Below, piece after piece: positions 14,355-61,592 of a DNA stretch of 62,878 nucleotides; position 1 is the first letter of the stretch, and each line of letters begins with the position of its first letter. Under the pieces are notes generated by a model. That model had not been told where the DNA came from, made no database searches, and worked only from the letters and a program-made list of their open reading frames with translations. Both the position numbers and the translations under genes were made by a program. The DNA comes from Firmicutes bacterium ZCTH02-B6 (GTDB taxonomy: Bacteria; Bacillota; Limnochordia; Limnochordales; ZCTH02-B6): positions 1 to 62,878 of the forward strand of contig LZRQ01000119.1 of the NCBI GenBank assembly GCA_002159155.1. The letters run 5' to 3'.

Positions 14355-14355
14355 G

Positions 14356-15333: not shown

Positions 15334-15462
15334 GGGCCCGCACCGGCGGGTGCCCGCGGGCGCGGGTGCGCCCCCGGCCAGTGAGCCGCCCGGGACCGTT
15401 TACCGGCCCGGGCGGCGCCAGCACAGGCCTGGTGCAGTTGCCCTGGGGGAGAGGAGCGGACC

Positions 15463-17541: not shown

Positions 17542-17620
17542 GACGTCGCCGGCCGGTTAAGGCGCAGGCCCCGGGCCGTCGGCACCGGGTTGAGCGGAGC
17601 AGCGGAGGAGGGATCCGCGG

Positions 17621-19890: not shown

Positions 19891-19929
19891 CGGGGATGAA
19901 GATGGCGGAATAAGTGAAGGAGTTCACTA

Positions 19930-20019: not shown

Positions 20020-20147
20020 CTCTTATCGAGAGCGGCGGAGGGACTGGCCCGATGAAGCCCGGCAACCGGCGTCCGCTTTAGGGCGGGCGCAAGGTGCCAA
20101 TTCCTGCCGAATGCCGGGGAGAGGCCCGGCGTTTGGGGAGATGAGAG
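20020..20147 (+). promoter_or_regulatory. SAM-I (S-box) riboswitch aptamer
   Basis: CTCTTATCGAGAGCGGCGGAGGGACTGGCCCGATGAAGCCCGGCAACC ... AAGGTGCCAATTCCTGCC ... GGAGATGAGAG matches the conserved S-box core. The P1 arms are CTCTTATC and GATGAGAG. It is upstream of metNIQ, the classic regulon. Confidence 0.9.
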
Positions 20148-27123: not shown

Positions 27124-28104
27124 TCACGCACGGGCGCGCAGCATGGCCAGCAGCGCGTCCGCCGCCTGGTAAGCGTCCAGCTTGCGAGCGGCGATGTCGC
27201 TAATCAGATGCTCCTTTTGGGACGCCACGGAGGAAGCTGCCAATACCTGCTCAAGGCGAACGAGCAATGCTTCCTCCAGTTCCGCTTCAGCCTGGGAGCG
27301 TACGATGTGTTCCCAGCGGCCGGACTGCAAGAGATAGGCGCGGTGGGCGTCAAGCGCGTCGGCCAGCTGGTCGACATTTTCGCCCTTCAAGGCGACGGTG
27401 CGCACAATCGGCGGGATCCAGCCTTCGTCGGGCTGCTGGCCGACAGCGAGCGCGGATTCGCGGCCTACTTCGATCATGGACGCCAGTTGGGCTGCGGTGC
27501 GGTCGGCGCCTTCCCGGTCCGCCTTGTTCACCACGTACACGTCCGCGATTTCCAGAATACCGGCTTTCAACATCTGTATGTCGTCGCCGAGCCCGGGAAC
27601 GGATACCACCACCGTCGTGTGCGCCAAGCTGCGCACCGCCACGTCCGACTGGCCTGCCCCAACGGTTTCGATCAGAACGACGTCCTTGCCGAACGAATCG
27701 AGCAGGTGCACGACGCCTCGCACCGAGCGGGACGTGCCCCCCAGCTGCCCGCGGGAGGCCATGCTGCGGAAAAAGACGCCGCTGGGGGCGTCTTGCGGCA
27801 TGCGCACTCGGTCACCCAGCACGGCACCCCCGGAAAAGGGGCTTGTCGGGTCGATGGCGACAATGCCTACCTGACGCCCGCGGCGGCGGTAGGCGGAGGC
27901 CAGCGCCCAAACCAGGGTGCTCTTGCCCGCGCCGGGCGGACCCGTGAGGCCGATGACGTGGGCCTTGCCCGTGTGGGGGTGGATCTCCCGCATGACGTCT
28001 GCGACGCCCGGGTCACCGTCGTCGACTAAGGTGATGAGCCGGGCCAAAGCACGGCGGTCGCCGGCCAGCATACGCCGGGCTAGATCGATCAGGGCGCCGG
28101 ACAA
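27124..28104 (-). CDS. meaB: Methylmalonyl-CoA mutase-associated G-protein chaperone (MeaB/ArgK)
   Basis: 326 aa with P-loop GLTGPPGAGKSTL and NKAD motif VVNKADR. Confidence 0.92.
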   Translation of the reverse strand: MSGALIDLARRMLAGDRRALARLITLVDDGDPGVADVMREIHPHTGKAHVIGLTGPPGAGKSTLVWALASAYRRRGRQVGIVAIDPTSPFSGGAVLGDRVRMPQDAPSGVFFRSMASRGQLGGTSRSVRGVVHLLDSFGKDVVLIETVGAGQSDVAVRSLAHTTVVVSVPGLGDDIQMLKAGILEIADVYVVNKADREGADRTAAQLASMIEVGRESALAVGQQPDEGWIPPIVRTVALKGENVDQLADALDAHRAYLLQSGRWEHIVRSQAEAELEEALLVRLEQVLAASSVASQKEHLISDIAARKLDAYQAADALLAMLRARA

Positions 28105-28107
28105 CGG

Positions 28108-28551
28108 TCACACCTCCCCGGGCACAAGCTGCACGAGACGATCGCCGCTGTTGACCGTGTCGCCCGCAGCCACGCCGACGGCCTGCACGAATCCCGCCAC
28201 CGGGGCCGGAATCTCGTTTTCCATCTTCATGGCCGTCAACACCAGCAGTATGTCGCCGCGCCGTACCCGGTCCCCCGGCTGTACCCGTACCTCGGTCACG
28301 GTGCCGGGCATGGGAGCCGTTAACCACCCGTTTCGCAGCCCGGACGAGCCCGGGCCGGAGGCCTCGTTTCCGGCGGAGTCAAGCGCGGGTGCCTCCTGCG
28401 GTGATGCGACGAGCGTCGCCTCAACCGACGGCGACGTTGACGGGGGACTAGCGGCCGGTTCTGCGTCCGGCAGTTCTTCGACGAGTACCTCGTGGCGCAC
28501 ACCGTCAACGGTAATCGCAAAACGTCTACGAAGGCCAGGGCCAGTTTGCAC
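28108..28551 (-). CDS. Biotin carboxyl carrier protein (1.3S-like)
   Basis: 147 aa. N-terminal RFAITVDGVRHEVLVEEL, a Pro/Ala/Ser linker and the biotinylation motif LTAMKMENEI. Confidence 0.88.
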   Translation of the reverse strand: MQTGPGLRRRFAITVDGVRHEVLVEELPDAEPAASPPSTSPSVEATLVASPQEAPALDSAGNEASGPGSSGLRNGWLTAPMPGTVTEVRVQPGDRVRRGDILLVLTAMKMENEIPAPVAGFVQAVGVAAGDTVNSGDRLVQLVPGEV

Positions 28552-30163
28552 GGAGATTCCTCCTGTCCATGGCGGGGTTGGCCATTCGGTGGCGCTGGGC
28601 CATCAGCTCAAGGCGCCCTGCGGCCCCCCACCGGAGTGGGGCCGACGGTGCCGGTTCGCGCGGCGGCGACGCCCGTGTGACGGAGACGATCCGGTGCGGC
28701 CTGTCCATCACCGCCGCGACCGCCGCCGCGATGACGGCCAGGCGGCGACGGTCGGACGAAGAGGGCTCAGGGGCATGCGGAGTGCTGGCGGGTACCGCCG
28801 CACGCAGCGAGTCCGCCGCGGCCTGGACGGCTCCCTCAGACACCGCCGTTTCAGCGAAATGCGTGTCGATCTGGCCGGTGGCGAAGCTTGGGTTGGCCAG
28901 CACTGCAAGGTGAAACGGAATTGTCGTCGGGACGCCTTCGATGTGGAACTCCCGCAACGCCCGCTGCATGCGGGCCAAGGCCGCAGCGCGGTCCGGTGCC
29001 CACACGATCAACTTGGCCATCATCGAGTCATAGAAGGGCGGGATAAGCCAACCGGCCCGGGCGGCCCCGTCGACGCGGACGCCGGGCCCCGCGGGCGCGA
29101 CGTAGGCGGTGATCAGGCCAGGTGCCGGTGCGAAGGACCGCAGGGGGTCCTCGGCGTTGATGCGGCATTCGAGGGCCCAGCCCCTGGGAACGAGCTCGTC
29201 CTGGCCAAATGGCAGTGGTTCGCCCGCCGCCACCCGGATCTGGGCCGCGATCAAGTCGACGCCGTAACGGACCTCGGTGACCGGGTGTTCCACCTGGATG
29301 CGGGTGTTGACTTCGAGAAAATAAAACCGTCCGTCTCGATCCAACAAGAACTCCACAGTGCCGGCGTTGATGTAACCTAGTGCCTGCAGGAGCCGCACGG
29401 CGGCTTCGCCCATCTGTGCCCGGATCTCCGGGGTAACCGCCGGGGAAGGGGATTCTTCGATCAGCTTTTGGTGGCGCCGCTGCACGGTGCAGTCACGCTC
29501 GCCCAGGTGCACCACGTGCCCGTGGGCGTCGGCCAGCACCTGGATTTCCACGTGGCGCGCGCCCTCCAGGTACTTCTCTAAATAGACCCAAGGCGACTTG
29601 AAGGCAGCCTCCGCTTCCGACATGGCCCGGGGGAGAAGCCGCACCAGCTCTTCCTCATTGCGGGCCAGCCGCATCCCCCGACCGCCGCCGCCCGCCACCG
29701 CCTTGATGAGGACCGGGTATCCGATCTCGGCCGCCCGACGCGCCGCTTCACCTACATCGGTGACCGGCTCACTGCCGGGAAGGCATGGAATCCCAAGGGC
29801 GATGGCCGAGGCGCGGGCCCGGTCCTTCTCCCCAAGGTGTTCCATAACCTCAGGCGTCGGCCCGATAAAGGTCAGCCCTGCTTCCCGGCACAGGCGGGCG
29901 AAGGAGGCGTTTTCCGCGAGGAACCCATAGCCGGGGTGGACCGCCTCCGCTCCCGCGTCCAGCGCGGCCTGTACAACGCGGGGCGCGTCCAGATAGCACC
30001 AGGGATCGCCGAGGTTGATCGCTTCATCTGCCAATTCCACCGGCAACGAGCCAGCGTCGGCGTCGCTGTGGACCACCACGGCCTCGACGCCCAACTCCCG
30101 GCACGTACGAATGATGCGCAGGGCGATCTCGCCCCGGTTGGGGATGAGGAGACGCCGAAACAT
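28526..30163 (-). CDS. Biotin carboxylase subunit of an acyl-CoA (propionyl-CoA) carboxylase, with a ~95-aa C-terminal extension
   Basis: From ATG 30163: [25 protein letters not shown], an ATP-grasp region (GGGGRGMRL), then the BC C-terminal domain. The upstream 19 codons of the ORF are probably not translated. Confidence 0.9.
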
Positions 30164-30241
30164 CACCGAACACGTCCTTGCTCTCAGCCCACCGCACAAG
30201 GTGGCGCGCTGCAAAGCCACGCGCGGCGCTGCGGCCGCACA

Positions 30242-31777
30242 TCAGAGCGGGATGTTACCGTGCTTTTTGGGTGGCCGGTCCTCGCGTTTGTTCGCCAGGG
30301 CTGCCAGCGCATGGATAATTCTCGGGCGCGTTTCGCGCGGGTCAATGACGTCATCCACCATGCCCCGGGCGCATGCCACATAAGGGTTTGCATACCGATC
30401 GCGGTACTCGCGCGTGCGCTCGGCCAGCAGAGCCTGCGGATCCTCGGCATGGGCCAGCCCGTTGCGGTAAAGAATCTGCGCCGCCCCTTCCGGGCCCATC
30501 ACGGCGACCTCGGCCGTCGGCCACGCCAAGGCCAGATCGGCGCCGATACCTCTGCTGCTCATGGCCACATACGCCCCGCCGTACGCCTTACGCAGGATGA
30601 CGGCGATCTTGGGCACCGTCGCCTCGGCGTAGGCGTAGAGGATTTTCGCCCCATGGCGGATGATGCCCCGGTGCTCCTGCGCTACCCCCGGCAGAAAGCC
30701 GGGCACGTCCACGAAAGTCACCAGCGGGATGTTGAACGCGTCGCAAAAGCGCACGAAGCGGGCGATCTTGTCGGAAGCGTCGATGTCGAGGCAGCCGGCC
30801 AACACCCGCGGCTGGTTGGCGATGACGCCCACGACTTGGCCGGCCATGCGGCCGAACCCCGCTACCGCGTTAAGGGCAAACTCCTGGTGCACTTCGAGCA
30901 GCCGCCCGCCGTCCAACACCCGCCACAGCACCTGGCGCACGTCGTAAGCTTTATTGGGCGAGGTGGGGACGACATCGAGGAGTTCGTCAGGGTGGCCCGG
31001 CGGTTCCGATGGTTCCGTGACCGGCGGCGTCTCGAGGTTGTTGGAGGGGAGGTAACTCAAGAGGTCCCGCACCATCGCCAGGCACTCCTCCTCGGATGGT
31101 GCGCGGAAGTGGGCCACGCCGCTTTTGCTGGCGTGGGTCTCGGCCCCGCCCAATTCCTCAAAGGTGACGTCCTCGCCCGTGGCGGCCTTTGTCACCTGAG
31201 GGCCGGTGATGAACATCTTGCTCACGCGGTCGGCCACGAAGGTGAAGTCCGTTAGGGCCGGGGAATAGACGGCCCCGCCGGCGCACGGACCAAGGATAAC
31301 CGAGATCTGCGGGACGACTCCCGACAGGCGGGCGTTGCGGGCAAAGATCTCCCCGTACGCGCCGAGGGCGTCGACTCCCTCCTGGATGCGGGCGCCGCCC
31401 GAGTCATTGATCCCCACGATGGGAGCGCCTGCCCGGTAAGCCAGGTCCATGATTTTGCAGATTTTGCGGGAATGCAGCTCACCGACGGAACCGCCATAGA
31501 TCGTGAAATCCTGGGAAAAGCAGAAGACGGGGCGGCCGTGGATGCGTCCCCAGCCGGTGACGACGCCTTCGCCGATGGGGTCATCGGGTACCCCGTTGCC
31601 GGTGTGTTGGCGAACAAAGGAATCGATTTCCTGGAAACTGCCCGGATCGAGCAGGGACGCCAGCCGTTGCCGGGCAGTGCCCTTGCCCGACGCCCGCTGC
31701 TGGGTGACCCGCTGCTCGCCGCCGCCAGCGGCGCTCTTGGTCCGCCACGCCGCAAGCTGCTCCAGCTTCTGCTGCAT
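30242..31777 (-). CDS. Acyl-CoA carboxylase carboxyltransferase (propionyl-CoA carboxylase beta / methylmalonyl-CoA carboxyltransferase 12S-like)
   Basis: Start is probably MQQKLEQL at 31777 (the ORF extends to 31837). Typical pattern GKGTARQRLASLLDPGSF ... GGARIQEG ... FVDVPGFLPG. Confidence 0.9.
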   Translation of the reverse strand: MQQKLEQLAAWRTKSAAGGGEQRVTQQRASGKGTARQRLASLLDPGSFQEIDSFVRQHTGNGVPDDPIGEGVVTGWGRIHGRPVFCFSQDFTIYGGSVGELHSRKICKIMDLAYRAGAPIVGINDSGGARIQEGVDALGAYGEIFARNARLSGVVPQISVILGPCAGGAVYSPALTDFTFVADRVSKMFITGPQVTKAATGEDVTFEELGGAETHASKSGVAHFRAPSEEECLAMVRDLLSYLPSNNLETPPVTEPSEPPGHPDELLDVVPTSPNKAYDVRQVLWRVLDGGRLLEVHQEFALNAVAGFGRMAGQVVGVIANQPRVLAGCLDIDASDKIARFVRFCDAFNIPLVTFVDVPGFLPGVAQEHRGIIRHGAKILYAYAEATVPKIAVILRKAYGGAYVAMSSRGIGADLALAWPTAEVAVMGPEGAAQILYRNGLAHAEDPQALLAERTREYRDRYANPYVACARGMVDDVIDPRETRPRIIHALAALANKREDRPPKKHGNIPL

Positions 31778-31842
31778 CGAAGCGTTCAACGGTCCAGGCC
31801 TCCTCATCGTGGTCAAGCTCGGGGGGCGTGGCCGCACGGCCG

Positions 31843-33498
31843 TTAGGCCGCGTCGCCCTCCCTGTGCTCGCCAAACACTTCCCGCAGCACGCCGCAGATT
31901 TCTCCAACGGAGGCGTACGCTTCCACAGCCCGGATCAAGTAGGGCATGAGATTGTCATCGCCCTGTGCCGCCTCCCGCACCGCGGCCAGCGCCGCTTGGA
32001 CGGCCCGTTGGTCCCGCTCCCGCCGCACGCGCTGGAGCCGCTCGATCTGGGCCCGCTCCTGAGCCTCATCGACCTGCAGCAGTTCCGGCTCATGGTGCTC
32101 TTCCATCCGGTACCGGTTGACGCCGACCACGACCCGCTGGCCCGATTCCACCTGCTGCTGCCAGCGGTAGGAGCTCTCCTCAATTTCCCGTTGCATGAAG
32201 CGGGTTTCGATCGCGCGCACCGCGCCGCCGATGTCGTCGATACGCCGGATGTAATCTTTGGCCCGTTCGTAGATGGCCTCGGTCAGGTGCTCGACCAAGT
32301 AGGACCCGCCCAGGGGATCGATGACGTCGGTCACTCCTGTCTCATGGGCGAGAATCTGCTGGGTGCGGACGGCGATGCGGCTCGCGGTCTCGCTTGGCAA
32401 AGCCAGCGCCTCATCGAAGGCGTTGGTGTGCAACGATTGCGTCCCGCCCAACACCGCCGCGAGCGCCTGGTAGGCGACGCGAACGATGTTGATCTCGGGC
32501 TGCTGGGCCGTCAGGGTGCAGCCGGCCGTCTGTGTGTGAAACCGGAGGGCCCACGCGCGCGGGTCCGTCGCGCCGAAGCGCTCCCGCATAATCTCCGCCC
32601 ACAGCCGGCGGGCGGCGCGGAATTTGGCCACCTCTTCGAAGAGGTGCATGTGGGCGTTGAAGAAGAACGACAGGCGCGGGGCAAACCGGTTTACGTCGAG
32701 CCCGCGCTTCATGGCTTCGGAGACGTATGCGATCGCGTTGGCAAGGGTAAAGGCGACCTCCTGGACGGCGTCGGCGCCTGCCTCGCGTATGTGGTAGCCG
32801 CTGATGCTGATGACGTTCCACTTGGGCACGTGCTCCTGGCAGTAGGCAAACAGATCCACGACCAGTCGCAAGGAAGGCCGGGGCGGGAAGATGTAGGTGC
32901 CGCGGGCCAGGTACTCTTTCAAAATGTCGTTCTGCACCGTGCCCGCAAGCTGCGCCGGGTCGAGCCCCTGGCGCTTGGCGACAGCGATGTACATGGCCAA
33001 CAAAATGGCCGCCGGGGCGTTGATGGTCATGGACGTGCTGACTTGGTCCAAGGGGATCCCTTGAAAAAGCGCCTCCATGTCGGCCAGCGTGTCGACCGCG
33101 ACGCCGACACGTCCGACTTCGCCGCTGGCCAGCGGGTGATCGGAGTCGTAGCCTAACTGCGTGGGCAGGTCGAAGGCTACCGACAACCCTGTCGTCCCCT
33201 GTGAGAGCAGGTAATGGAAACGCCGGTTCGTTTCCGCAGCGGTGCCGTAGCCCGCGTACTGGCGCATCGTCCAGGGCCGGCCGCGGTACATGGTCGGATA
33301 AGGCCCGCGGGTAAACGGGTACTCGCCCGGCCAGCCCAGGGCCCGTTCCCAATCGAGGCTGGCCAGATGGGCAGGGGTGTAGAGGGGCTCAAGCGGGATG
33401 CCGGAGCTGGTCTCCCTTGTGGCCAGCTCTTGGGCGGCACCGGCTCGCCAACGTTCCAGCGCGCGGTTGATCCGCTCGAGGGCGCTCGATTCCCACAC
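31843..33498 (-). CDS. Methylmalonyl-CoA mutase catalytic (N-terminal, TIM-barrel) subunit, with no B12-binding domain
   Basis: 551 aa with [42 protein letters not shown] and [12 protein letters not shown]. Ends before the cobalamin-binding domain. Confidence 0.9.
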
Positions 33499-47492: not shown

Positions 47493-47612
47493 TGGGCTGC
47501 ATCTCCCATCGCAGCAGGACCTGCGCACCGGGCTTCGGGGCGCGCGGCTTCAGAGAGTACATTAACGCAACCGGCGATTTTTCGCAAGCGAACGAGCCGC
47601 GAGGTGGAATCC

Positions 47613-48983
47613 ATGAAGCAGGTACGGATCGGTGCCGCGCAGGGATTCTACGGCGACATCATCGAACCGGCGCTCGACTTGGCTGAGAAATCGGATGTGC
47701 AATACTTGTGTTTCGATTGCTTGGCGGAGCTGACGCTGGCCATTTTGCAAAAGGACCGCCAGCGGGATCCGTCGCTGGGCTACACCAAAGACATCGCGAT
47801 TACCGCCCGCACGCTGTTGCCATATGTCAGGCGCAAGGGAATCAAGCTCATCACCAACGCGGGTGGTCTCAACCCGGAAGGCGCCCGGCGGGAGATGATC
47901 CGCATCGCGCAAGAGATGGGTATCAAGGGGCTGCGCATTGCCATCGCGACCGGCGACGACATCCTGGACCGCCTGGACGAGCTGCAGGCGGCGGGCGTGG
48001 ATCTCTCGGACCGGGAAACCGGCCGTCCGTTGGCGGCCATCCGGGACCGGCTTCTGTTTGCCAACGCGTACCTGGGTGCTCAGCCCATCGTCGAGTGTTT
48101 GCGCCAAGGGGCTGATGTGGTTATCACCGGCCGCACAACGGACACGGCGCAATTTCTGGCGCCCCTTATCTATGAGTTCGGCTGGTGGGCCGACGATTGG
48201 GATCGCCTCGCCCAGGGGTTAGTTTTGGGCCACCTGATGGAGTGTTCGGGACAGGTGACCGGAGGCAACTTCAGCGGCGACTGGTGGAACGTTCCTGACC
48301 TGGACCGCATTGGATATCCCCTGGCCGAAGTCAACGAGGATGGGTCCTTTGTCCTCACGAAAGCGCCCGGCACCGGCGGGCGGGTCAGTGTGGACACCGT
48401 GCGGGAGCAGTTCCTCTACGAGATACATGACCCGGCGACGTACATCACGCCCGACGCGGTGGCGGATCTGACGGCCGTGCGTATCGAACAGGCGGGGCCC
48501 GACCGGGTGCGGGTGAGCGGGGCGAAAGGGCGGCCGGCGCCGCCCACCCTTAAAGTCGTCATGGGTTATCGCAATGGGTTTATGGGGTCCGGCATGATCG
48601 GGTTTGCTTGGCCGAAGGCCTTAACCAAAGCCCGCAGGGCCGCGGGGATCATTCGGCGCCAGCTGGACCGGATGGGCGTCCGGTACGAGGAGTTTTGGGT
48701 GGACTACCTGGGCGTCAACGCCCTCCATGGACCAGCGGCGCCGATTCCCGACGAGGATAAGGTTAATGAAGTTTTCCTGCGGGTTTCCATCAGGACCCAA
48801 GACCGGGAGCAGGCGGCGCGCCTGGGGCGGCTCTTCCCGCCGTTGGTGCTCAACGGGCCGCCTGGGGTAGCCATGATGCCCTTTGCCGCCCACACACGGG
48901 AGCTCATCGGCTTGTGGACGGCTCTCATTCCTCGCGAGCTGGTGGAGGAGCGGGTGCGGGTTTCCGTGGAGGAGGTGGCGTAA
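47613..48983 (+). CDS. AtuA-family protein, N-terminal DUF1446 part (function unknown)
   Basis: ATG 47613. MKQVRIGAAQGFYGDIIEPALDLAEKSDVQYLCFDCLAELTLAILQKDRQRDPSLGY, recognised as the DUF1446/AtuA N-terminal pattern. 456 aa. The upstream 85 codons of the ORF are rejected. Confidence 0.75.
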   Translation: MKQVRIGAAQGFYGDIIEPALDLAEKSDVQYLCFDCLAELTLAILQKDRQRDPSLGYTKDIAITARTLLPYVRRKGIKLITNAGGLNPEGARREMIRIAQEMGIKGLRIAIATGDDILDRLDELQAAGVDLSDRETGRPLAAIRDRLLFANAYLGAQPIVECLRQGADVVITGRTTDTAQFLAPLIYEFGWWADDWDRLAQGLVLGHLMECSGQVTGGNFSGDWWNVPDLDRIGYPLAEVNEDGSFVLTKAPGTGGRVSVDTVREQFLYEIHDPATYITPDAVADLTAVRIEQAGPDRVRVSGAKGRPAPPTLKVVMGYRNGFMGSGMIGFAWPKALTKARRAAGIIRRQLDRMGVRYEEFWVDYLGVNALHGPAAPIPDEDKVNEVFLRVSIRTQDREQAARLGRLFPPLVLNGPPGVAMMPFAAHTRELIGLWTALIPRELVEERVRVSVEEVA

Positions 48984-48989
48984 GCCGCC

Positions 48990-49349
48990 ATGGCGAAAGT
49001 GCAACTCAAGGACGTGGTGCTGGCCCGTTCGGGCGACAAGGGCGACACGTGCGACATCAGCGTCTTCGCCCCCAACGAGGCCGTATACGAACATTTGAAA
49101 CGCGTGCTGACCCCCGAAGTCGTCAAGGCCCATTTCGGTCCTTGGGTGCAGGGCGAGGTCGAATGCTTCGAGGTGCCCAATGTCCTGGCGCTCAAGTTTT
49201 TGTGCCACGGAGCGCTGGGAGGAGGAGCCAGCTCGTCGCTGCGCCTGGACAACCTGGGCAAGTGTTTTGGCTCCAACCTCATGCGGCTGGAGATTGACCT
49301 GCCGGACCACCTGCTGAATCAACTGCATGCGGGAGGCGAGGACCGTTGA
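48990..49349 (+). CDS. Small protein resembling the C-terminal domain of AtuA (possibly DUF4387)
   Basis: 119 aa with LKDVVLARSGDKGDTCDISVFA ... LALKFLCHGALGGGASSSLRLDNLGK. Starts 7 nt after the DUF1446 gene. Together the two ORFs total 575 aa, near the size I recall for single-chain AtuA. Confidence 0.6.
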   Translation: MAKVQLKDVVLARSGDKGDTCDISVFAPNEAVYEHLKRVLTPEVVKAHFGPWVQGEVECFEVPNVLALKFLCHGALGGGASSSLRLDNLGKCFGSNLMRLEIDLPDHLLNQLHAGGEDR

Positions 49350-49558
49350 CGCCAGTGACGGCGCCCATGACGGGAATCGTGTACCAACTGCCGGCTGCTG
49401 TCGGAACGACTGTCTCGGAGGGAGACAGCATTGCGATCTTGGAATCGATGAAGATGCACGTCCCGGTGCCGGCGCCCAAGGCGGGGCGGGTCAAAGAAAT
49501 CCGCGTCCAAGAGGGCGAGTTTGTGGAGGAAGGCGCCATCTTGGCCTTGATAGAGTGA
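49346..49558 (+). CDS. Stand-alone 70-aa biotinyl (biotin carboxyl carrier) domain protein
   Basis: Biotin/lipoyl hairpin fold pattern with ILESMKMHVPVPAP. Start overlaps the preceding stop. Confidence 0.8.
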   Translation: MTPVTAPMTGIVYQLPAAVGTTVSEGDSIAILESMKMHVPVPAPKAGRVKEIRVQEGEFVEEGAILALIE

Positions 49559-49604
49559 GGGGCCGCGGGCCCACACTCAACGGGCGGAGAGGACGTTCCT
49601 AAGG

Positions 49605-51131
49605 ATGGGGCAGACCGAACGCCTTTGGGCGGAAGTTGAACGCATCTCGGCCGGCGGACCGAGGCAGTACCACGAGAAGCTGCGGCAGCAGGGGAAGATG
49701 TTTGTCCGCGAGCGGCTGGCCAAGCTGCTGGATCCAGGCAGCTTCGTGGAAGATGGCCTACTGGCCCGCTGCGAGGATCCCGGTCTGCCGGCTGACGCGG
49801 TGGTGACGGGCATCGGGCGCATAAACGGGCGCACCGTTTGCATTATGGCGTCGGACGCCACGGTCAAAGCCGGCACCTGGGGCGCCCGCACCGTCGAGAA
49901 GATCGTCCGCATCCAAGAGCAGGCATTGAAATTCAACGTTCCCCTTTTGTACCTGGTGGACAGCGCTGGCGGGCGCATCACGGACCAGGTGGAGATGTTC
50001 CCCGGCCGGCGCCACGCCGGGCGAATCTTCTATAACCAGGTCAAAATGTCCGGACGGGTGCCTCAGGTGTGCGTTTTATTTGGACCGTCGCCCGCCGGCG
50101 CGGCATACTTGCCTGCGCTTTCCGATGTCGTCATCATGGTGGACGGCAACGCCAGCGCCTACCTGGGTTCGCCGCGCATGGCCGAGATGGTTATCGGTGA
50201 GAAAGTGGATCACGAGACGATGGGCGGCGCCCGCATGCACTGCACCGTCAGTGGTCTGGGAGACTTTCTCGCCGCCTCGGAGGACGAGGCCATCGAGCTG
50301 ATGAAGCGATACCTCTCCTATATGCCCGACAATTGGATGGGCGTCCCCCCGGCCGAGCCGCCGCAAGAACCCGACGGCACGGTGCCGTTGTCCTCCGTCG
50401 TGCCGCCGGACCAAAACACCCCATTCAACATGTACCGCTTCATCGACGGCCTGGTGGACGGGGGCAGCTTCTTCGAGATCAAGAAGGAATACGCTCCGGA
50501 ACTGATCACAGGCTTTGCTCGGCTCAACGGGCGGGTGATCGGCATTGTGGCCAACCAGCCTGCGGTCAAGGGCGGAGTGCTCTTTGTCGACTCGGCCGAC
50601 AAGGGCGCCAGGTTCATTTGGCTCTGCAACGCGTACAACATTCCGCTCTTATTCCTCGCGGACGTGCCCGGCTTCATGATCGGTTCACGGGTGGAGCGGC
50701 AAGGTATCATCCGCCACGGCGCTAAGATGATTTGCGCGGTGTCGGAGGCGACGGTGCCCAAAATCTCGGTCATCGTCCGCAAGGCGTACGGGGCGGGGCT
50801 GTACGCCATGGCCGGACCAGCTTTTGAGCCCGATGCCTGCATCGCGCTGCCGAGGGCCCAAATTGCCATCATGGGACCTGAGGCTGCGGTCAACGCCGTC
50901 TACTACAACAAGATCCAAGAGCTGCCCCAAGACGAGCGGCCGTCCTTCGTCGCCGCGAAGCGAGCGGAGTACGCGGCGGACATCGACATCTTCCGCCTGG
51001 CCTCCGAGCTCATCGTGGACGCTGTGGTGGATCCGGACCAGTTGCGCGCAGAGCTCATCCGCCGCTTCGCGGCCGCTGCGGGCAAAGCCGTCACTTTTAC
51101 GGAGCGGCGCTGTCCGGTGTACCCGGTTTAG
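49605..51131 (+). CDS. Acyl-CoA carboxyltransferase (carboxylase beta-subunit family)
   Basis: 508 aa with GKMFVRERLAKLLDPGSF, DSAGGRI, LADVPGFMIG. Second paralogue in the window. Confidence 0.88.
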   Translation: MGQTERLWAEVERISAGGPRQYHEKLRQQGKMFVRERLAKLLDPGSFVEDGLLARCEDPGLPADAVVTGIGRINGRTVCIMASDATVKAGTWGARTVEKIVRIQEQALKFNVPLLYLVDSAGGRITDQVEMFPGRRHAGRIFYNQVKMSGRVPQVCVLFGPSPAGAAYLPALSDVVIMVDGNASAYLGSPRMAEMVIGEKVDHETMGGARMHCTVSGLGDFLAASEDEAIELMKRYLSYMPDNWMGVPPAEPPQEPDGTVPLSSVVPPDQNTPFNMYRFIDGLVDGGSFFEIKKEYAPELITGFARLNGRVIGIVANQPAVKGGVLFVDSADKGARFIWLCNAYNIPLLFLADVPGFMIGSRVERQGIIRHGAKMICAVSEATVPKISVIVRKAYGAGLYAMAGPAFEPDACIALPRAQIAIMGPEAAVNAVYYNKIQELPQDERPSFVAAKRAEYAADIDIFRLASELIVDAVVDPDQLRAELIRRFAAAAGKAVTFTERRCPVYPV

Positions 51132-51153
51132 CTTGGAGTGATACCAGACGGCG

Positions 51154-52047
51154 GTGCTGATCACGGGGGCAGCGGGGTTTGTGGGCCGGCATGTGGCGGT
51201 GGGACTGCGCCAGGCAGGCTACGTCGTCCGCTGTTTGGTCCGGCCGGGGAGCGTTCGGCGGCTGCCGCGGCTAGCGGGCCTTGAGATCGCGGCTGTCGAC
51301 CTGCGGGCACCACAGGCGGTGCTCGCGCCGGCCCTGGCGGGCGTGCGGGTTGTCGTCCACGCAGCCGGTTTGCGGGCCCAACGCCCCTGGCGGGGAGAGA
51401 CGTTCGCAGCCGTACACGTGGACGCGACCGCCCGTCTCGTGGAGGCGGCGGAAGCGGCGGGCGTAGAGCGGTTTGTCCTTTTGAGCTGTCTAGGGGCTGC
51501 GCCCGACAGCGACCTCGCGTATCTGCGCAGCAAGGCACAGGCCGAGTCCATAGTCCAACAGAGCCGGCTGGCGTGGACTGTCCTGCGCTGCGGGCTCATC
51601 TACGGCCCCGGCGACGGCCGCGTCACCCGGCTGGCCCGGTGGATGCGGTGGTTTGGGAGGACGCCCGTGGTCGGCGACGGATTGTTCTTGGTGCAGCCCA
51701 TCGCCGTGGGAGACGTAGTGGCCGGCTGCGTGGCGGCGGCCGCCGGGCGGCTGGAGCAGCGTACGTTGTCGGCGGGGGGCCCAGACGTCCTGGCTTTCCG
51801 GGACATGGTGGAACTGCTGGCCGCGGCCATCGACCGGCGCCTGCCGCTCCTAAGGATACCGGTGGGCCCCGCCCGTCTGCTCGCGGCGGCCTGCCGCCTT
51901 AGCGGCGTCATCCCTTGGACGGCGGATGAGTTGCAGGTCATGATGCGGGGGTACACGTGCGACCCGCGGGAGTACTACGAGGCGGCCGGACTCGTGCGCC
52001 CGTTGCCGTTCAGTGCTGCGGTGCGCGCGTACCTGGGACCAAGCTAA
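51154..52047 (+). CDS. NAD(P)-binding Rossmann protein (NmrA / NDUFA9 / epimerase-like SDR)
   Basis: LITGAAGFVGRHV glycine motif and YLRSK catalytic-type motif. 297 aa. Confidence 0.8.
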   Translation: MLITGAAGFVGRHVAVGLRQAGYVVRCLVRPGSVRRLPRLAGLEIAAVDLRAPQAVLAPALAGVRVVVHAAGLRAQRPWRGETFAAVHVDATARLVEAAEAAGVERFVLLSCLGAAPDSDLAYLRSKAQAESIVQQSRLAWTVLRCGLIYGPGDGRVTRLARWMRWFGRTPVVGDGLFLVQPIAVGDVVAGCVAAAAGRLEQRTLSAGGPDVLAFRDMVELLAAAIDRRLPLLRIPVGPARLLAAACRLSGVIPWTADELQVMMRGYTCDPREYYEAAGLVRPLPFSAAVRAYLGPS

Positions 52048-52072: not shown

Positions 52073-52765
52073 ATGCGGATTCGGTATTTGGGCCACTCGG
52101 CGTTTGTCCTCGAAGCCGGCGGCAAACGGGTCGTGGTGGATCCGTTTTTGAGCGGCAATCCCCGCTGCCCGGTGAAACCGGAGGAGTTGGACGTGGACGG
52201 CATCGTGCTCACCCACGGCCACGCGGACCATGTGGGCGACGCTGTCGCCATCGCCAAGCGGACGGGAGCCATCATCGTTGCTCCCGTGGAGTTGGCGGGC
52301 TACATGGCCGGACAGGGTGCGCCCAGCGTGCACGGTATGAATTTTGGCGGCAGCCGGCAGTTTGATTTTGGCCACGTCAAGATGGTGCCGGCCTGGCACA
52401 GCTCGTCGCTGGACGGTCCGACCGGTCCGATCTACTTGGGAAACCCGGCTGGTTTCCTGATCACCATGGAAGGCGTCACCGTCTACCACGCCGGCGACAC
52501 AAGTCTTTTCGGCGACATGGAGCTCATCGGGCGCCGCCATCGCATTGACGTCGCGCTGCTGCCCATCGGTGACAATTACACCATGGGTCCTGAGGATGCC
52601 GTGTACGCCGCGGAGTTGATCAAGCCGCGCTACGTCATCCCGATGCATTACGGCACGTTCCCAGTTATCGAACAGGATCCCAACGCCTTCGCCCGGCTGG
52701 CGGAGGCAGCCGGCGTGAAATGCCAGGTACTCGCGCCGGGCCAAGAGTGGGTGGTTCCTGCCTGA
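52073..52765 (+). CDS. UPF0173-family MBL-fold metal-dependent hydrolase
   Basis: MRIRYLGHSAFVLEAGGKRVVVDPF ... LTHGHADHVGD. 230 aa from ATG 52073. Confidence 0.85.
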   Translation: MRIRYLGHSAFVLEAGGKRVVVDPFLSGNPRCPVKPEELDVDGIVLTHGHADHVGDAVAIAKRTGAIIVAPVELAGYMAGQGAPSVHGMNFGGSRQFDFGHVKMVPAWHSSSLDGPTGPIYLGNPAGFLITMEGVTVYHAGDTSLFGDMELIGRRHRIDVALLPIGDNYTMGPEDAVYAAELIKPRYVIPMHYGTFPVIEQDPNAFARLAEAAGVKCQVLAPGQEWVVPA

Positions 52766-52786: not shown

Positions 52787-52814
52787 GGGGGATGCATCCC
52801 CGGGTGCATCCCCC
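52787..52814 (+). terminator. Stem-loop after the UPF0173 gene
   Basis: GGGGGATGCA / TGCATCCCCC 10-bp stem with an 8-nt loop, followed by GTTGCTTG (weak U-tract). Confidence 0.5.
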
Positions 52815-52876: not shown

Positions 52877-53884
52877 ATGGCCCAGGCCGCGCACATCGCG
52901 CTCGCATGCATTCAGGCCAAGGTGAGCCTGGACGACTACTTGACGGTCGAAAGGTTCCAGAGCCTCGTGGACCGTCTGATGCGCCAGGCGGCGGCGGTGA
53001 TGCCCGACGATGTGCCTCGCCTAGTTGTCTTCCCAGAGGACTTTGCTTCCGGCTGCATCTTTGCGGGTGAGGCCGACGTCTTGCCCCAAGGAGGAGGCTT
53101 GCGCGCGGCCGTAGCGGCCCTGGTCAGGAGGCACTTTGCGGGGGTCATGACCCAGAGGCTTAAGCACCGGGTCGGGTGGGTGCGGGCGCTGGCTCTGCAC
53201 CGGGCTGCCACGGTGGCGGAGATCTACTTTGACACCTTTGCCGCAGCGGCGCGGCGTTACGGGACGTACGTGCTAGGCGGTACGGTGCTGTTGCCGAGGC
53301 TTGACGACAAGCGCCAGCCCAAGGGCAGCGACGTATACAACACGGCCTACCTGTTTGGGCCGGATGGGAAGGTCATCGGCGCGCAGCGCAAGGCGTTTCT
53401 TATAGAGTTGGAGGGGCCGGAAGGGCTAGATCTGGCGACGGGCTCGGTGGAAGAGCTGACCGCCTGGGACACCGAGCTCGGCCGCATCGCAGTTGCCGTC
53501 TGTTTCGACGCTTTCCAGGAACCTGTCATCGAGCGGCTCGCGGCCTTGAATCCGGACATTTTGCTGCAGCCCTCGGCCAATCCGCAGCCATGGAACGACT
53601 GGCAGCAGGAGGACTGGCTAAGGGGAAGCTGGCATGCCGTGTGCCAGCGAGGCATCGCTCGCTACGGCGTAAATCCCATGCTGGTCGGAAGCCTCCTGGA
53701 CATTTCCTTCGAAGGCCAGTCCGCCATCTTGGACCGAGAGCTCGCGCGCACGCAAGCCGAGCCTTTGCCCGCGCAAGCCCCGGGCTACGCGGCGCTGGCG
53801 CCGCGCCCGGGCTTCGTCCAGGTAGCGGGCAGCTGGACGGAGGAGGAGGTCCTGGTGGTGACGTTGCCGCACCCGGCGCGCTAA
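52877..53884 (+). CDS. Carbon-nitrogen hydrolase (nitrilase superfamily) protein
   Basis: 335 aa with candidate Glu-Lys-Cys triad contexts VVFPEDF, AQRKAFL and AVAVCFDAF. Confidence 0.8.
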   Translation: MAQAAHIALACIQAKVSLDDYLTVERFQSLVDRLMRQAAAVMPDDVPRLVVFPEDFASGCIFAGEADVLPQGGGLRAAVAALVRRHFAGVMTQRLKHRVGWVRALALHRAATVAEIYFDTFAAAARRYGTYVLGGTVLLPRLDDKRQPKGSDVYNTAYLFGPDGKVIGAQRKAFLIELEGPEGLDLATGSVEELTAWDTELGRIAVAVCFDAFQEPVIERLAALNPDILLQPSANPQPWNDWQQEDWLRGSWHAVCQRGIARYGVNPMLVGSLLDISFEGQSAILDRELARTQAEPLPAQAPGYAALAPRPGFVQVAGSWTEEEVLVVTLPHPAR

Positions 53885-61400: not shown

Positions 61401-61424
61401 AAAGCACTAAACATATAGCAGCAC

Positions 61425-61592
61425 GGGAGCGCTGAATCCTGCCGCCACCGGACTCAGGCGGTGGGAGCGGGGGACCCAGTCGGCGGTCCGCAGCGGCGGA
61501 CCAGGGGTGAATCCCGGCAATGCCGGGTAGGGTCAACTTCCGATCCGAACCCGCAAGCTAACCTCGCAAGCGTGGCGAAGGCGTGCGCTCAC
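61425..61592 (+). promoter_or_regulatory. ydaO/yuaA-type cyclic-di-AMP riboswitch
   Basis: Pseudo-twofold conserved blocks: GAGCGCTGAATCC-hairpin-GGGAGCGGGGGACCCA, and GGGGTGAATCCC-hairpin-GGGTAGGG ... CCGAACCCGCAAGCTAACCTCGCAAGCGT. Closing helix GAGCGC (61427-32) / GCGCTC (61585-90). Confidence 0.85.

What the first reader, a model, noticed from the sequence alone, without database searches (positions are those of the whole stretch)
47613..52047. Uncharacterised operon: split AtuA (DUF1446 plus C-terminal-domain protein), stand-alone 70-aa biotin carrier and carboxyltransferase, with no biotin carboxylase
Seen in the sequence: five same-strand genes are packed with gaps of -4 to +46 nt and no terminator until 52787. 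They encode an AtuA-like DUF1446 protein (456 aa), a 119-aa protein resembling the AtuA C-terminal domain, a minimal biotinyl domain (ESMKM), an acyl-CoA carboxyltransferase and an NAD(P)-binding SDR-like protein. No ATP-grasp biotin carboxylase and no OadB-type membrane decarboxylase subunit is present. Established knowledge: AtuA is genetically required for acyclic terpene catabolism in Pseudomonas, where it sits beside the geranyl-CoA carboxylase genes atuC/atuF, but its biochemical role is unresolved. CT plus BCCP without BC is the architecture of transcarboxylases and biotin-dependent decarboxylases, in which a second partner handles carboxybiotin. Inference: the AtuA-carboxyltransferase linkage recurring in a distant high-GC Firmicute-like genome, here with a dedicated carrier and no BC, suggests AtuA acts directly on the carboxybiotin/BCCP cycle. 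It could be the second half-reaction enzyme of a transcarboxylase-like system. Alternatively the CT borrows the BC encoded at 28526-30163. A 12-bp palindrome TTCGCAAGCGAA (47581-47592) just upstream may be an operator.
Basis: partly seen in the sequence, partly recalled or inferred. Interest (0 to 1): 0.72.

Follow-up and report, generated by a model that had tools for sequence, protein, structure and literature searches.

The report
Branched acyl-CoA breakdown operon, AtuA-type lyase
This is a Gram-positive version of the known leucine/terpene breakdown gene set, where a two-part AtuA-type bond-cleaving enzyme sits where the usual HMG-CoA lyase would be, beside two parts of a biotin carboxylase; it is probably not a new kind of biotin enzyme.

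Summary
Five packed + strand genes encode AtuA (456 aa), an AtuA ferredoxin-like protein (119 aa), a 70-aa biotin carrier, a 508-aa carboxyltransferase (CT) and an SDR-like protein. No biotin carboxylase (BC) lies in the operon. The "12-bp palindrome" is only a 5+2+5 inverted repeat, and the closest relative lacks it.

The main interpretation, that AtuA works on carboxybiotin, is not supported.
- Both AtuA parts model onto the two subunits of a solved citramalate lyase (PDB 9evf A and B) and onto nothing else.
- A second two-subunit AtuA-like enzyme, ThnQS, is reported as a C-C lyase acting at a tertiary alcohol.
- About 50 related AtuA pairs have no biotin gene nearby.
- The CT and carrier belong to the Bacillus YngE/YngHB family of leucine-type clusters. 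Near such CTs, AtuA (7 loci) and HMG-CoA lyase (25 loci) never co-occur.
- Relatives place an enoyl-CoA hydratase between these genes.
- A missing BC is also common in the HMG-CoA-lyase clusters.

Most likely the carboxylase uses a BC encoded elsewhere. A hydratase then adds water and the AtuA-type lyase releases acetate. I rate it a new variant of a known kind, of modest interest.

The parts
47613..48983 (+). AtuA-type lyase, large subunit (456 aa)
   Evidence: PF07287, E 3e-151. The AF2 model (pLDDT 82.7) has one significant PDB match: 9evf_A, citramalate lyase subunit A, E 4e-26, TM 0.77. It is 45% identical to residues 7-322 of a fused 607-aa atuA.
48990..49349 (+). AtuA-type lyase, small subunit (119 aa). 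Ferredoxin-like, with the conserved motifs ARSGDKG and LRxDNLGK.
   Evidence: PF23544, E 6e-24. The AF2 model (pLDDT 88.8) has one significant PDB match: 9evf_B, E 7e-5, TM 0.57/0.63. It aligns to residues 485-593 of the fused atuA. A match to it lies next to the large-subunit gene in 79 of 80 genome loci; the exception is a 1.6-kb contig.
49346..49558 (+). Stand-alone single-domain biotin carrier (70 aa, biotinyl Lys36 in ESMKM), YngHB/BLAP type
   Evidence: Biotin_lipoyl, E 1e-19. It scores below the cut-offs of NF006079 and NF004547, the 70-71-aa carrier models. PDB 1z6h (B. subtilis BLAP), E 1e-12. It is 50% identical to the 71-aa carrier of the yng-type cluster in L087.
49605..51131 (+). 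Acyl-CoA carboxyltransferase (508 aa), YngE family, probably gamma-carboxylating (MCC-like)
   Evidence: Carboxyl_trans, E 7e-159. It is 65% identical to the CT of an ACAD-BC-BCCP-HMGL-ECH-CT cluster, L087. That CT nests inside the AtuA-linked clade, 50/50 bootstraps. CT508 keeps 58 of 60 residues that are invariant in the reference CTs. It shares the MCC-type segment FPxRxxxGRIFYNQ with its 3-residue insertion.
51154..52047 (+). NAD(P)-binding extended-SDR/NmrA-like protein (297 aa). Probably co-transcribed, but not a conserved part of the system.
   Evidence: Pfam Epimerase, NAD_binding_10 and NmrA. Found only in the window and its 89% relative L003. A different 359-aa ORF occupies this position in L093.
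52073..52765 (+). MBL-fold protein, last gene before the terminator-like hairpin. Role in the system unknown.
   Evidence: Lactamase_B_3, E 2e-28. Called as 230 aa. It stays syntenic with the CT in L003 and L093, together with the CN-hydrolase gene at 52877-53884.
52787..52814 (+). Terminator-like hairpin (12 pairs, 8 G-C) with a weak T tail
47529..47612 (+). Upstream intergenic region. It holds the 5+2+5 inverted repeat at 47581-47592 (not conserved) and a block at 47555-47571, GAGTACATTA[A/T]CGCAAC, that is conserved with L003.
   Evidence: No sigma-70-like promoter was found by the scan.
28526..30163 (-). Candidate BC supplied in trans (545 aa), the only BC in the window. It belongs to a separate operon: mutase, CT, BC, BCCP, MeaB.
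   Evidence: It is 45% identical to the YngH-like BC of L087, whereas the BCs inside AtuA-type clusters are 53-64% identical to it. A partnership with the operon is inference only.

Best explanation
The operon encodes two enzymes of one catabolic route for a 3-methyl-branched acyl-CoA. The route is a Gram-positive variant of the leucine (Liu) and acyclic-terpene (Atu) pathways.

**Step 1, carboxylation.** The CT (49605-51131) and the 70-aa carrier (49346-49558) are the YngE- and YngHB-type parts of a three-component biotin carboxylase. A BC encoded elsewhere loads CO2 onto the carrier using ATP. It could be the BC at 28526-30163 or one outside the window. The CT then transfers the CO2 to the gamma-methyl group of a 3-methyl-2-enoyl-CoA. 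The substrate could be 3-methylcrotonyl-CoA or a longer homologue.

**Step 2, hydration.** An enoyl-CoA hydratase adds water. This gives a tertiary alcohol that carries a carboxymethyl group, a 3-hydroxy-3-alkylglutaryl-CoA. The hydratase is encoded inside the operon in relatives, but not here.

**Step 3, cleavage.** The two-subunit AtuA-type lyase (47613-49349) cleaves that tertiary alcohol. The products are acetate and a 3-oxoacyl-CoA, which can enter beta-oxidation. Here the lyase occupies the slot that HMG-CoA lyase holds in the classical cluster.

**Shown:** the family memberships, the fold matches, the synteny and the mutual exclusion with HMG-CoA lyase.
**Inferred:** the substrate, the regiochemistry of cleavage and the identity of the BC.
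For: 1. **The AtuA pair is a lyase homologue.** The only significant PDB fold matches are citramalate lyase CmlA and CmlB, entry 9evf 'Citramalate lyase - ADP - pyruvate complex'. The profile-to-sequence hit to 9erq_A has E 1e-4.
 - CmlAB cleaves citramalate directly to pyruvate and acetate (bioRxiv 10.64898/2026.01.16.699985).
[quoted passage not shown] 2. **The CT and carrier are YngE/YngHB-type.** CT508 is 65% identical, and the carrier 50% identical, to those of the ACAD-BC-BCCP-HMGL-ECH-CT cluster of Bacillus sp. N5-665. That CT nests within the AtuA-linked clade. BLAP/YngHB is biotinylated by BirA, and its neighbours are thought to form a methylcrotonyl-CoA carboxylase (PMC4016012).

3. 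**The CT looks gamma-carboxylating.** It shares the MCC active-site segment with its 3-residue insertion, which the PCC type lacks (criterion from PMC4673880).

4. **Replacement pattern.** Among 80 metagenome loci carrying this CT family, 7 have AtuA, 25 have HMG-CoA lyase and none has both. HMG-CoA lyase is absent from all 80 AtuA genome loci.

5. **Pathway neighbours.**
 - Of 20 Bacillota loci, 16 have the CT, 15 an ECH and 16 an ACAD.
 - L006 reads ECH, BCCP, AtuA-L, AtuA-S, ACAD, ACAD, CT, ligase, MaoC, ligase.
 - L093 reads BCCP, ECH, CT. L111 reads AtuA-S, ECH, AtuA-L, CT.
 - In Proteobacteria, L030 and L046 pair AtuA-L/S with a CT that carries the GCC signature of a 3-residue deletion plus Gly.

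6. **BC in trans.** YngH-like BCs lie next to the carrier or CT in L020 and L043, and 3.7 kb beyond the CT in L007. L021 also has a BC beside AtuA-S, but it is no closer to YngH than other BCs (47%) and its two CTs are PCC-type. A BC is also absent from 19 of 25 HMG-CoA-lyase-type loci.
Against: - No hydratase of the cluster type is in the operon or the window. The window's 257-aa ECH at 23574-24347 is only 27-29% identical to the cluster ECHs.
- No enzyme here has been assayed. The ThnQS result is cited as unpublished, and I could not find the primary CmlAB paper in the library.
- The window protein is only a distant relative of CmlA: 17% identity in the fold alignment.
- The CT clade is separate from both the proteobacterial MCC/GCC lineage and the PCC lineage. 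It scores slightly higher against PCC-type PDB chains (366 bits) than against MCC (319 bits).
- AtuA-linked CTs differ from HMG-CoA-lyase-linked sister CTs at two active-site columns, so the substrate may not be methylcrotonyl-CoA.
- AtuA-type clusters often keep a carrier without a BC: 5 of 7 against 0 of 7 in metagenome loci. In HMG-CoA-lyase clusters carrier and BC almost always occur together (6 BC, 7 carriers in 25; the one carrier without a BC is on a 4-kb contig). The explanation does not predict this.
- The only BC in view has its own carrier and CT.
Confidence: 0.62

Rival explanations
1. AtuA-L/S handles carboxybiotin directly, so that CT, carrier and AtuA form a BC-independent transcarboxylase-like or decarboxylase-like machine.
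For: - There is no BC in the operon.
- AtuA-type clusters often keep a dedicated carrier with no BC: a carrier in 5 of 7 and a BC in 0 of 7 metagenome loci, and a carrier in at least 10 of 20 against a BC in 4 of 20 Bacillota loci.
- The solved family member binds ADP (title of 9evf), so nucleotide chemistry in the family cannot be excluded.
- AtuA-linked CTs differ from HMG-CoA-lyase-linked CTs at two active-site columns.
Against: - AtuA-L/S fold matches are to a C-C lyase only. Nothing resembles a 5S-type carboxyltransferase or a carboxybiotin decarboxylase.
- The 47 AtuA pairs scored in Pseudomonadota and Dormibacterota at 47-53% identity have no orthologous CT, and a carrier was found at only 3, each beside a biotin carboxylase match.
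- No locus has a carrier without either a CT or a BC match beside it.
- AtuA coexists with a normal BC in L007, L020, L021 and L043, and with GCC-type carboxylases in L030 and L046.
- Missing a BC is equally common in HMG-CoA-lyase clusters of the same CT family.
Confidence: 0.04
2. Neighbours without a shared pathway. The CT and carrier form an ordinary methylcrotonyl-CoA (or other acyl-CoA) carboxylase. AtuA-L/S is a lyase for an unrelated tertiary-alcohol acid that already carries its carboxyl group, as with citramalate or the ThnQS substrate.
For: - AtuA-L/S pairs in Pseudomonadota and Dormibacterota work without any carboxylase nearby.
- CmlAB and ThnQS act on substrates that no carboxylase made.
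- The window operon has no hydratase to link the two steps.
Against: - Co-localisation in 16 of 20 Bacillota loci, across several different gene orders, is hard to explain without shared function.
- A hydratase is interleaved with these genes in L093, L111 and the Bacillales clusters.
- AtuA and HMG-CoA lyase exclude each other next to the same CT family: 7, 25 and 0.
- The canonical Atu cluster shows the same linkage, seen here in L030 and L046.
Confidence: 0.15
3. The CT and carrier act as a biotin-dependent decarboxylase, of the methylmalonyl- or glutaconyl-CoA type, or as an alpha-carboxylating PCC-like enzyme. They would then feed or drain a different AtuA-lyase substrate.
For: - The best NCBIfam hit is the mmdA subfamily, at 424 bits, far below its cut-off of 998.8.
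- The top PDB sequence hits are PCC-beta, MmdA and 12S chains, at 344-366 bits.
- The protein is short at the N terminus, like PCC-beta.
Against: - No OAD_beta/GcdB-type membrane subunit lies within 10 kb.
- The active-site segment is MCC-like, not PCC-like.
- Sister CTs sit in isovaleryl-CoA dehydrogenase, HMG-CoA lyase and ECH clusters.
- GcdA is a distant match, at 162-178 bits.
Confidence: 0.07

Closest known systems
Pseudomonas acyclic terpene utilisation cluster atuABCDEFGH (AtuA with geranyl-CoA carboxylase AtuC/AtuF and hydratase AtuE)
   Same: An AtuA-family protein is linked to a biotin-dependent acyl-CoA carboxylase. In relatives it is also linked to an ECH, an ACAD and acyl-CoA ligases. 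The pathway logic is the same: carboxylate the beta-methyl branch, hydrate, then cleave off acetate (PMC4847356). Proteobacterial loci L030 and L046 in my set show this canonical form, with a GCC-signature CT.
   Different: - AtuA is split here into 456-aa and 119-aa proteins, not fused at about 600 aa.
- The CT belongs to the YngE clade, not the MCC/GCC-beta lineage.
- The carrier is a free 70-aa protein rather than the C terminus of a BC-BCCP alpha subunit.
- There is no BC, ECH or ACAD in the operon.
Bacillus subtilis yngJ-yngI-yngH-yngHB-yngG-yngF-yngE operon (putative leucine-type methylcrotonyl-CoA carboxylase pathway), represented here by L087 of Bacillus sp. N5-665
   Same: The CT family is the same (65% identity). 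Both have a single-domain carrier of about 70 aa (50% identity; BLAP PDB 1z6h, E 1e-12). Both use the three-separate-component carboxylase design (PMC4016012).
   Different: HMG-CoA lyase (YngG) is replaced by AtuA-L/S. The BC (YngH), hydratase (YngF) and dehydrogenase (YngJ) are not in the operon. AtuA-linked CTs mostly differ from HMG-CoA-lyase-linked CTs at two active-site columns. CT508 matches the lyase-linked state at one column (A138) and the AtuA-linked state at the other (A166).
Citramalate lyase CmlAB (PDB 9erq/9evf; Raoultella planticola enzyme used in bioRxiv 10.64898/2026.01.16.699985)
   Same: It has the same two-subunit architecture, with subunits of 456 aa and about 105 aa. It is the only significant fold match for both window proteins: TM 0.77 for the large subunit and 0.57/0.63 for the small one. 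It cleaves a tertiary alcohol and releases acetate.
   Different: It is very distant in sequence: 17-18% identity and profile E 1e-4. It acts on a free dicarboxylic acid in a glutamate/mesaconate context (PMC4682846), not next to acyl-CoA enzymes or a carboxylase.
ThnQ/ThnS 'AtuA-like lyase' of anaerobic naphthalene degradation (PMC12016498)
   Same: It is a two-gene AtuA-like lyase embedded among ECH, ACAD, MaoC and thiolase genes. It cleaves a tertiary-alcohol acyl-CoA that carries a neighbouring carboxyl group and produces a 3-oxoacyl-CoA.
   Different: Its substrate gets its carboxyl group from ring chemistry, not from a biotin carboxylase. I could not compare sequences because they were not available to me. 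The activity is cited as unpublished.
Transcarboxylase (12S/5S/1.3S) and Na+-pumping biotin decarboxylases (Oad, Gcd, Mmd)
   Same: They also have a CT and a small biotin carrier without a BC.
   Different: The defining second partner is absent: there is no 5S-type TIM-barrel subunit and no OAD_beta-type membrane subunit. AtuA-L/S does not resemble either.

Membership tests
AtuA family (PF07287 plus PF23544) | AtuA domain above Pfam's gathering score | tested here: met
   504.4 bits against a cut-off of 22.8, covering profile positions 1-436 of 437.
AtuA family (PF07287 plus PF23544) | C-terminal ferredoxin-like domain, fused or as a separate subunit | tested here: met
   A separate 119-aa ORF scores 84.9 bits against a cut-off of 27. 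It aligns to residues 485-593 of a fused 607-aa atuA.
AtuA family (PF07287 plus PF23544) | Fold of the solved member (CmlA/CmlB) | tested here: met
   9evf_A: E 4e-26, TM 0.77. 9evf_B: E 7e-5, TM 0.57/0.63. Each is the only match at E <= 0.001.
AtuA family (PF07287 plus PF23544) | C-C lyase activity on a tertiary-alcohol carboxylate or acyl-CoA | not testable with these tools
   This needs an enzyme assay. It is supported only by analogy to CmlAB and ThnQS.
YngE/YngHB/YngH-type three-component methylcrotonyl-CoA carboxylase cluster | CT groups with the CTs of ACAD-BC-BCCP-HMGL-ECH clusters | tested here: met
   65% identity to the L087 CT. The joint clade has 50/50 bootstraps. 25 of 80 metagenome loci carrying this CT family also carry HMG-CoA lyase.
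YngE/YngHB/YngH-type three-component methylcrotonyl-CoA carboxylase cluster | Single-domain biotin carrier of about 70 aa with an (A/S)MKM motif | tested here: met
   70 aa, ESMKM with Lys36. 1z6h BLAP, E 1e-12. 50% identity to the L087 carrier.
YngE/YngHB/YngH-type three-component methylcrotonyl-CoA carboxylase cluster | Stand-alone BC of about 445 aa in the cluster | tested here: not met
   There is no BC within 10 kb. The only BC in the window is the 545-aa one in the mutase operon, 17 kb away and 45% identical to the YngH-like BC.
YngE/YngHB/YngH-type three-component methylcrotonyl-CoA carboxylase cluster | HMG-CoA lyase and methylglutaconyl-CoA hydratase in the cluster | tested here: not met
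   No HMG-CoA lyase match anywhere in the window. The only small ECH is 24 kb away and 27-29% identical to the cluster ECHs.
Proteobacterial MCC/GCC beta lineage (LiuB/AtuC) | Active-site segment with Phe plus a 3-residue insertion (MCC), or Gly with no insertion (GCC); extended N-terminal helix (PMC4673880) | tested here: inconclusive
   The insertion and the flanking motif are MCC-like, but the key residue is Ala138. The N terminus is about 22 residues shorter than in MCC-beta. The tree places the protein in a separate clade.
Transcarboxylase (12S/5S/1.3S) | 5S subunit: an HMGL-like TIM-barrel that carboxylates pyruvate | tested here: not met
   No such domain in the operon or within 10 kb. 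AtuA-L's only fold match is CmlA.
Na+-translocating biotin decarboxylases (Oad/Gcd/Mmd) | Integral-membrane carboxybiotin decarboxylase (OAD_beta/GcdB) | tested here: not met
   Not among the genes called within 10 kb. The nearby membrane proteins are ABC exporters and a Yip1-domain protein.

The most novel reading that the evidence does not exclude
The AtuA-linked CT and carrier pairs form a distinct biotin system that runs without a classical biotin carboxylase. Three observations leave this open. Their clusters rarely contain a BC even when a dedicated carrier is kept. They differ from their HMG-CoA-lyase-linked sister CTs at two active-site positions. Their partner belongs to a family whose solved member binds ADP. 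In this reading the nucleotide-binding AtuA-type enzyme would be coupled, directly or through its substrate, to loading or unloading the carboxyl group on biotin. That would be a soluble, ATP-grasp-free carboxyl-transfer cycle.
Probability: 0.05. Interest if true: 0.8.

Novelty: new variant of a known kind. Interest (0 to 1): 0.35.

Why it matters
If the main reading is right, many Bacillota and Chloroflexota remove beta-methyl branches from acyl-CoAs with a YngE-type carboxylase and an AtuA-type lyase, rather than with HMG-CoA lyase. That would have three consequences.
- It would give the large AtuA/DUF1446 family a concrete, testable role in Gram-positive bacteria.
- It would strengthen the long-standing but unproven assignment of Pseudomonas AtuA as the acetate-releasing lyase.
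- It would improve annotation of thousands of genes now labelled 'DUF1446' or 'propionyl-CoA carboxylase beta'.

The cleavage would leave the CoA on the 3-oxoacyl product, so no acetoacetate activation would be needed.

The finding does not point to a new biotin mechanism. The two active-site differences between AtuA-linked and HMG-CoA-lyase-linked CTs suggest a distinct substrate that is worth identifying.

Tried and rejected
1. **Operator at the 'palindrome'.** It is a 5+2+5 repeat, the repeat finder did not recover it, and it is not conserved in L003. Rejected.
2. **Sigma-54 promoter.** Bacillales clusters carry a sigma-54 activator. By eye, the window's GGC...CGC spacing is one base short of the TGGCAC-N5-TTGC consensus, and no activator gene lies nearby. 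Not pursued.
3. **Sequence search of the small subunit against the PDB.** No hit, even with a profile. The relation to CmlB appeared only through fold comparison.
4. **Structure prediction with alignment A2.** Redone with database homologues.
5. **Assigning the CT to PCC or MCC from PDB scores.** Not decisive. Identity is 37-39% to both lineages. Context and the active-site segment had to be used instead.
6. **H6, labelled 'propionyl-CoA carboxylase subunit beta'.** It lies in a Liu cluster, so it was used as an MCC reference and not a PCC one.
7. **The window's ECH (23574-24347) as the missing hydratase.** Only 27-29% identical to the cluster ECHs. No support.
8. **A BC in the 10 kb beyond the window's start.** None found. 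The look-up at the other end failed because the ORF start did not match a recorded gene.
9. **Rfam scan.** No regulatory RNA near the operon.
10. **Literature.** No paper describes AtuA next to a YngE-type CT. The primary CmlAB paper is not in the library.

Full report
**1. What is there**

The window comes from a 121-kb metagenome contig that NCBI names 'Firmicutes bacterium ZCTH02-B6'. Its closest relatives are Limnochordales MAGs. GC content is 62-68%.

Pfam confirms each assignment:

| Gene | Pfam family | E-value |
|---|---|---|
| 47613-48983 | AtuA | 3e-151 |
| 48990-49349 | AtuA_ferredoxin | 6e-24 |
| 49346-49558 | Biotin_lipoyl | 1e-19 |
| 49605-51131 | Carboxyl_trans | 7e-159 |
| 51154-52047 | extended-SDR/NmrA-like families | 2e-23 (best) |

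A sixth gene, an MBL-fold protein at 52073-52765, precedes the only strong terminator-like hairpin at 52787-52814.

No BC and no OAD_beta-type membrane subunit lies within 10 kb. The BC at 28526-30163 is real. It belongs to a complete operon of its own: methylmalonyl-CoA mutase, CT (515 aa), BC (545 aa), BCCP (147 aa) and MeaB.

The one error is the 'palindrome'. It is a 5+2+5 inverted repeat, and the 89%-identical relative does not have it.

**2. What the AtuA pair is**

The split is genuine. The 456-aa protein aligns to the N-terminal 320 residues of a fused 607-aa atuA. The 119-aa protein aligns to its last 110 residues.

The split form is the norm in this clade. A match to the small gene lies next to the large one in 79 of the 80 genome loci, in Bacillota, Chloroflexota, Dormibacterota and Pseudomonadota; the exception is a 1.6-kb contig.

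AlphaFold models of both proteins are confident (pLDDT 82.7 and 88.8). Each has exactly one significant match in the PDB: chains A and B of 9evf, 'Citramalate lyase - ADP - pyruvate complex'. The depositors call chain A an 'AtuA family protein / citramalate lyase subunit A (cmlA)'.

The literature supports a lyase function for the family.
- A 2026 preprint uses this two-subunit enzyme to cleave citramalate directly to pyruvate and acetate.
- A 2025 review reports that ThnQ/ThnS, listed as 'AtuA-like lyase', cleaves a tertiary-alcohol acyl-CoA with an adjacent carboxyl group to a 3-oxoacyl-CoA.

All three reactions are the same chemistry. A C-C bond next to a tertiary alcohol is broken, giving a ketone and a carboxymethyl fragment.

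**3. What the CT and carrier are**

Sequence scores alone do not place the CT. It scores 333-366 bits against PCC-type chains and 303-319 against MCC chains. It is 37-39% identical to both lineages.

Context resolves this. A 65%-identical CT in Bacillus sp. N5-665 lies in the cluster ACAD, BC (445 aa), BCCP (71 aa), HMG-CoA lyase, ECH, CT, acetoacetyl-CoA-synthetase-like ligase. This is the gene order of the B. subtilis yng operon. Its 73-aa carrier, BLAP/YngHB, is biotinylated by BirA, and its neighbours are thought to form a methylcrotonyl-CoA carboxylase.

In a neighbour-joining tree this CT nests inside the AtuA-linked CTs. The joint clade has 50/50 bootstraps. It is separate from proteobacterial MCC/GCC-beta and from PCC/MmdA types.

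In the active-site segment that Jurado et al. use to separate the lineages, the family reads FPGRRHAGRIFYNQ. MCC reads FPDRDHFGRIFYNQ, including the same 3-residue insertion. PCC types have a deletion and a different motif. The CT keeps 58 of 60 residues that are invariant in the reference CTs. I therefore read it as an intact, MCC-like, gamma-carboxylating CT, with moderate confidence.

**4. Why the two are linked**

In loci with at least 5 kb on both flanks:

| Group | Loci | Orthologous CT | ECH | ACAD | BC |
|---|---|---|---|---|---|
| Bacillota | 20 | 16 | 15 | 16 | 4 |
| Chloroflexota | 4 | 3 | 0 | 3 | 0 |
| Pseudomonadota | 21 | 0 | 7 | 9 | 3 |

Many of the Pseudomonadota loci still sit among ACAD, ECH, ligase and transporter genes.

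A typical Bacillales cluster reads as follows: sigma-54 activator, ECH, BCCP, AtuA-L, AtuA-S, ACAD, ACAD, CT, ligase, MaoC, ligase. This is the Atu/Liu enzyme set with AtuA in the lyase slot.

HMG-CoA lyase is absent from all 80 AtuA loci.

Approaching from the other side, I took 80 metagenome loci carrying this CT family. Of these, 7 carry AtuA, 25 carry HMG-CoA lyase and none carries both.

Relatives also interleave a hydratase. L093 reads BCCP, ECH, CT, followed by the same MBL and CN-hydrolase genes as in the window. L111 reads AtuA-S, ECH, AtuA-L, CT.

In Proteobacteria, L030 and L046 pair AtuA-L/S with a CT that carries the GCC signature. That is the classical Atu arrangement.

The simplest reading is that carboxylase, hydratase and lyase catalyse consecutive steps. 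The link is through the pathway, not through physical handling of carboxybiotin.

**5. The missing BC**

A BC is absent next to the CT in 19 of 25 HMG-CoA-lyase-type loci as well. Its absence is therefore a habit of this CT family and not a mark of AtuA.

Where AtuA-type clusters do have a BC, in L007, L020 and L043 it is YngH-like, 53-64% identical to the L087 BC. In L020 and L043 it lies beside the carrier or CT. L021 also has one, but it is only 47% identical and sits with PCC-type CTs.

A BC in trans is thus the most economical explanation. The window's 545-aa BC is only 45% identical to the YngH type and has its own partners, so the true partner may lie outside the window.

One pattern is not explained. 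AtuA-type clusters often keep a carrier with no BC, whereas in HMG-CoA-lyase clusters the two nearly always occur together (6 BC, 7 carriers in 25 loci).

**6. Substrate**

This is open. Two active-site columns separate HMG-CoA-lyase-linked CTs from AtuA-linked CTs:

| Column | HMG-CoA-lyase-linked | AtuA-linked | CT508 |
|---|---|---|---|
| Position of MCC Phe191 / GCC Gly162 | Ala in 25/25 | Gly 18, Ala 11, Ser 1 of 30 | Ala138 |
| Second Gly of the MCC AGGAY motif | Gly in 25/25 | Ala/Ser/Thr in 24 of 30 | Ala166 |

The Bacillales clusters also carry two non-IVD-like ACADs, two or three medium-chain-type ligases and a MaoC hydratase. This leans towards a larger branched substrate than isovalerate. 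The evidence is indirect.

**7. Verdict**

The headline mechanism, AtuA as a carboxybiotin-handling partner, is not supported.

The system is a previously undescribed variant of the Liu/Atu design. It has a split AtuA-type lyase in the position HMG-CoA lyase holds in sister clusters, a YngE-type CT, a free carrier and an unlinked BC. I found no paper describing it.

It is useful for annotation and offers a testable route to AtuA's function. A specialist would not be greatly surprised by it.

Noticed in passing
window 27124-33498 (- strand): A complete propionate-type operon: methylmalonyl-CoA mutase (31843-33498), CT of 515 aa (30242-31789), BC of 545 aa (28526-30163), BCCP of 147 aa (28108-28551) and MeaB (27124-28104). 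The BC is about 100 aa longer than stand-alone AccC/YngH-type BCs, and the carrier is a separate gene. This looks like a PCC alpha subunit split after its linker domain.
   Followed up: partly
PDB 9evf (fold matches of window 47613-49349): The solved citramalate lyase of the AtuA family was crystallised with ADP and pyruvate. The small subunit family has an invariant glycine-rich ARSGDKG motif. Whether AtuA-type lyases need a nucleotide, for instance to activate the free carboxylate transiently, is unknown. It would bear on how a free-acid retro-aldol cleavage is achieved.
   Followed up: no
CT508 residues 138 and 166; loci L003-L171: Two active-site columns almost perfectly separate HMG-CoA-lyase-linked CTs (Ala and Gly, 25/25 each) from AtuA-linked CTs (mostly Gly, and Ala/Ser/Thr). 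The window's CT is mixed: Ala138 like the lyase-linked type and Ala166 like the AtuA-linked type.
   Followed up: partly
L111 144-4274; L093 6-5435: Variant gene orders occur in relatives. L111 has the small AtuA subunit first, then an ECH, then the large subunit, then the CT. L093 (77% CT identity) has an ECH between carrier and CT, a different 359-aa ORF where the window has the SDR gene, and the same MBL and CN-hydrolase genes downstream.
   Followed up: partly
window 47555-47571: A 17-nt block, GAGTACATTA[A/T]CGCAAC, upstream of the operon is conserved with the 89% relative L003, while the flanking intergenic sequence has diverged. It may be a promoter or an operator.
   Followed up: no
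window 1-19900: A fatty-acid beta-oxidation island. It holds two acyl-CoA ligases, an 800-aa FadB-like enzyme, a thiolase, ACADs of 591 and 390 aa, a TetR regulator, ETF alpha and beta and an Fe-S/CCG oxidoreductase. An Mrp-type cation/proton antiporter lies at the window's start.
   Followed up: no
window 20020-20147 and 61420-61586: A SAM riboswitch (80 bits) lies upstream of a MetNIQ-like ABC transporter. A c-di-AMP riboswitch (70 bits) lies upstream of the ORF that starts near 61583.
   Followed up: no
L008 11713-12546 and 15902-17509; L019: In Symbiobacteriaceae loci, the AtuA/CT cluster includes a 277-aa protein with a weak squalene-hopene-cyclase C-terminal domain hit (E 3e-7), an unannotated 356-aa protein and a SelO adenylyltransferase.
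   Followed up: no
L021 7147-16493: One Bacillota MAG combines AtuA-L/S with a BC and two tandem PCC-type CTs in place of the YngE-type CT. This is a different carboxylase partner for the same lyase.
   Followed up: no
L087 (NZ_CP093325.1): The PLSDB record 'Bacillus sp. N5-665 plasmid p1' is 5.5 Mb with only 25 annotated features. It is evidently a chromosome filed as a plasmid. It carries the yng-type cluster and gave no close AtuA hit in the plasmid search.
   Followed up: partly
L086 4917-6518 (AP027334.1): A CT annotated 'propionyl-CoA carboxylase subunit beta' sits between isovaleryl-CoA dehydrogenase and '3-methylcrotonyl-CoA carboxylase subunit alpha'. It has the MCC Phe signature, so the label is probably wrong.
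   Followed up: partly
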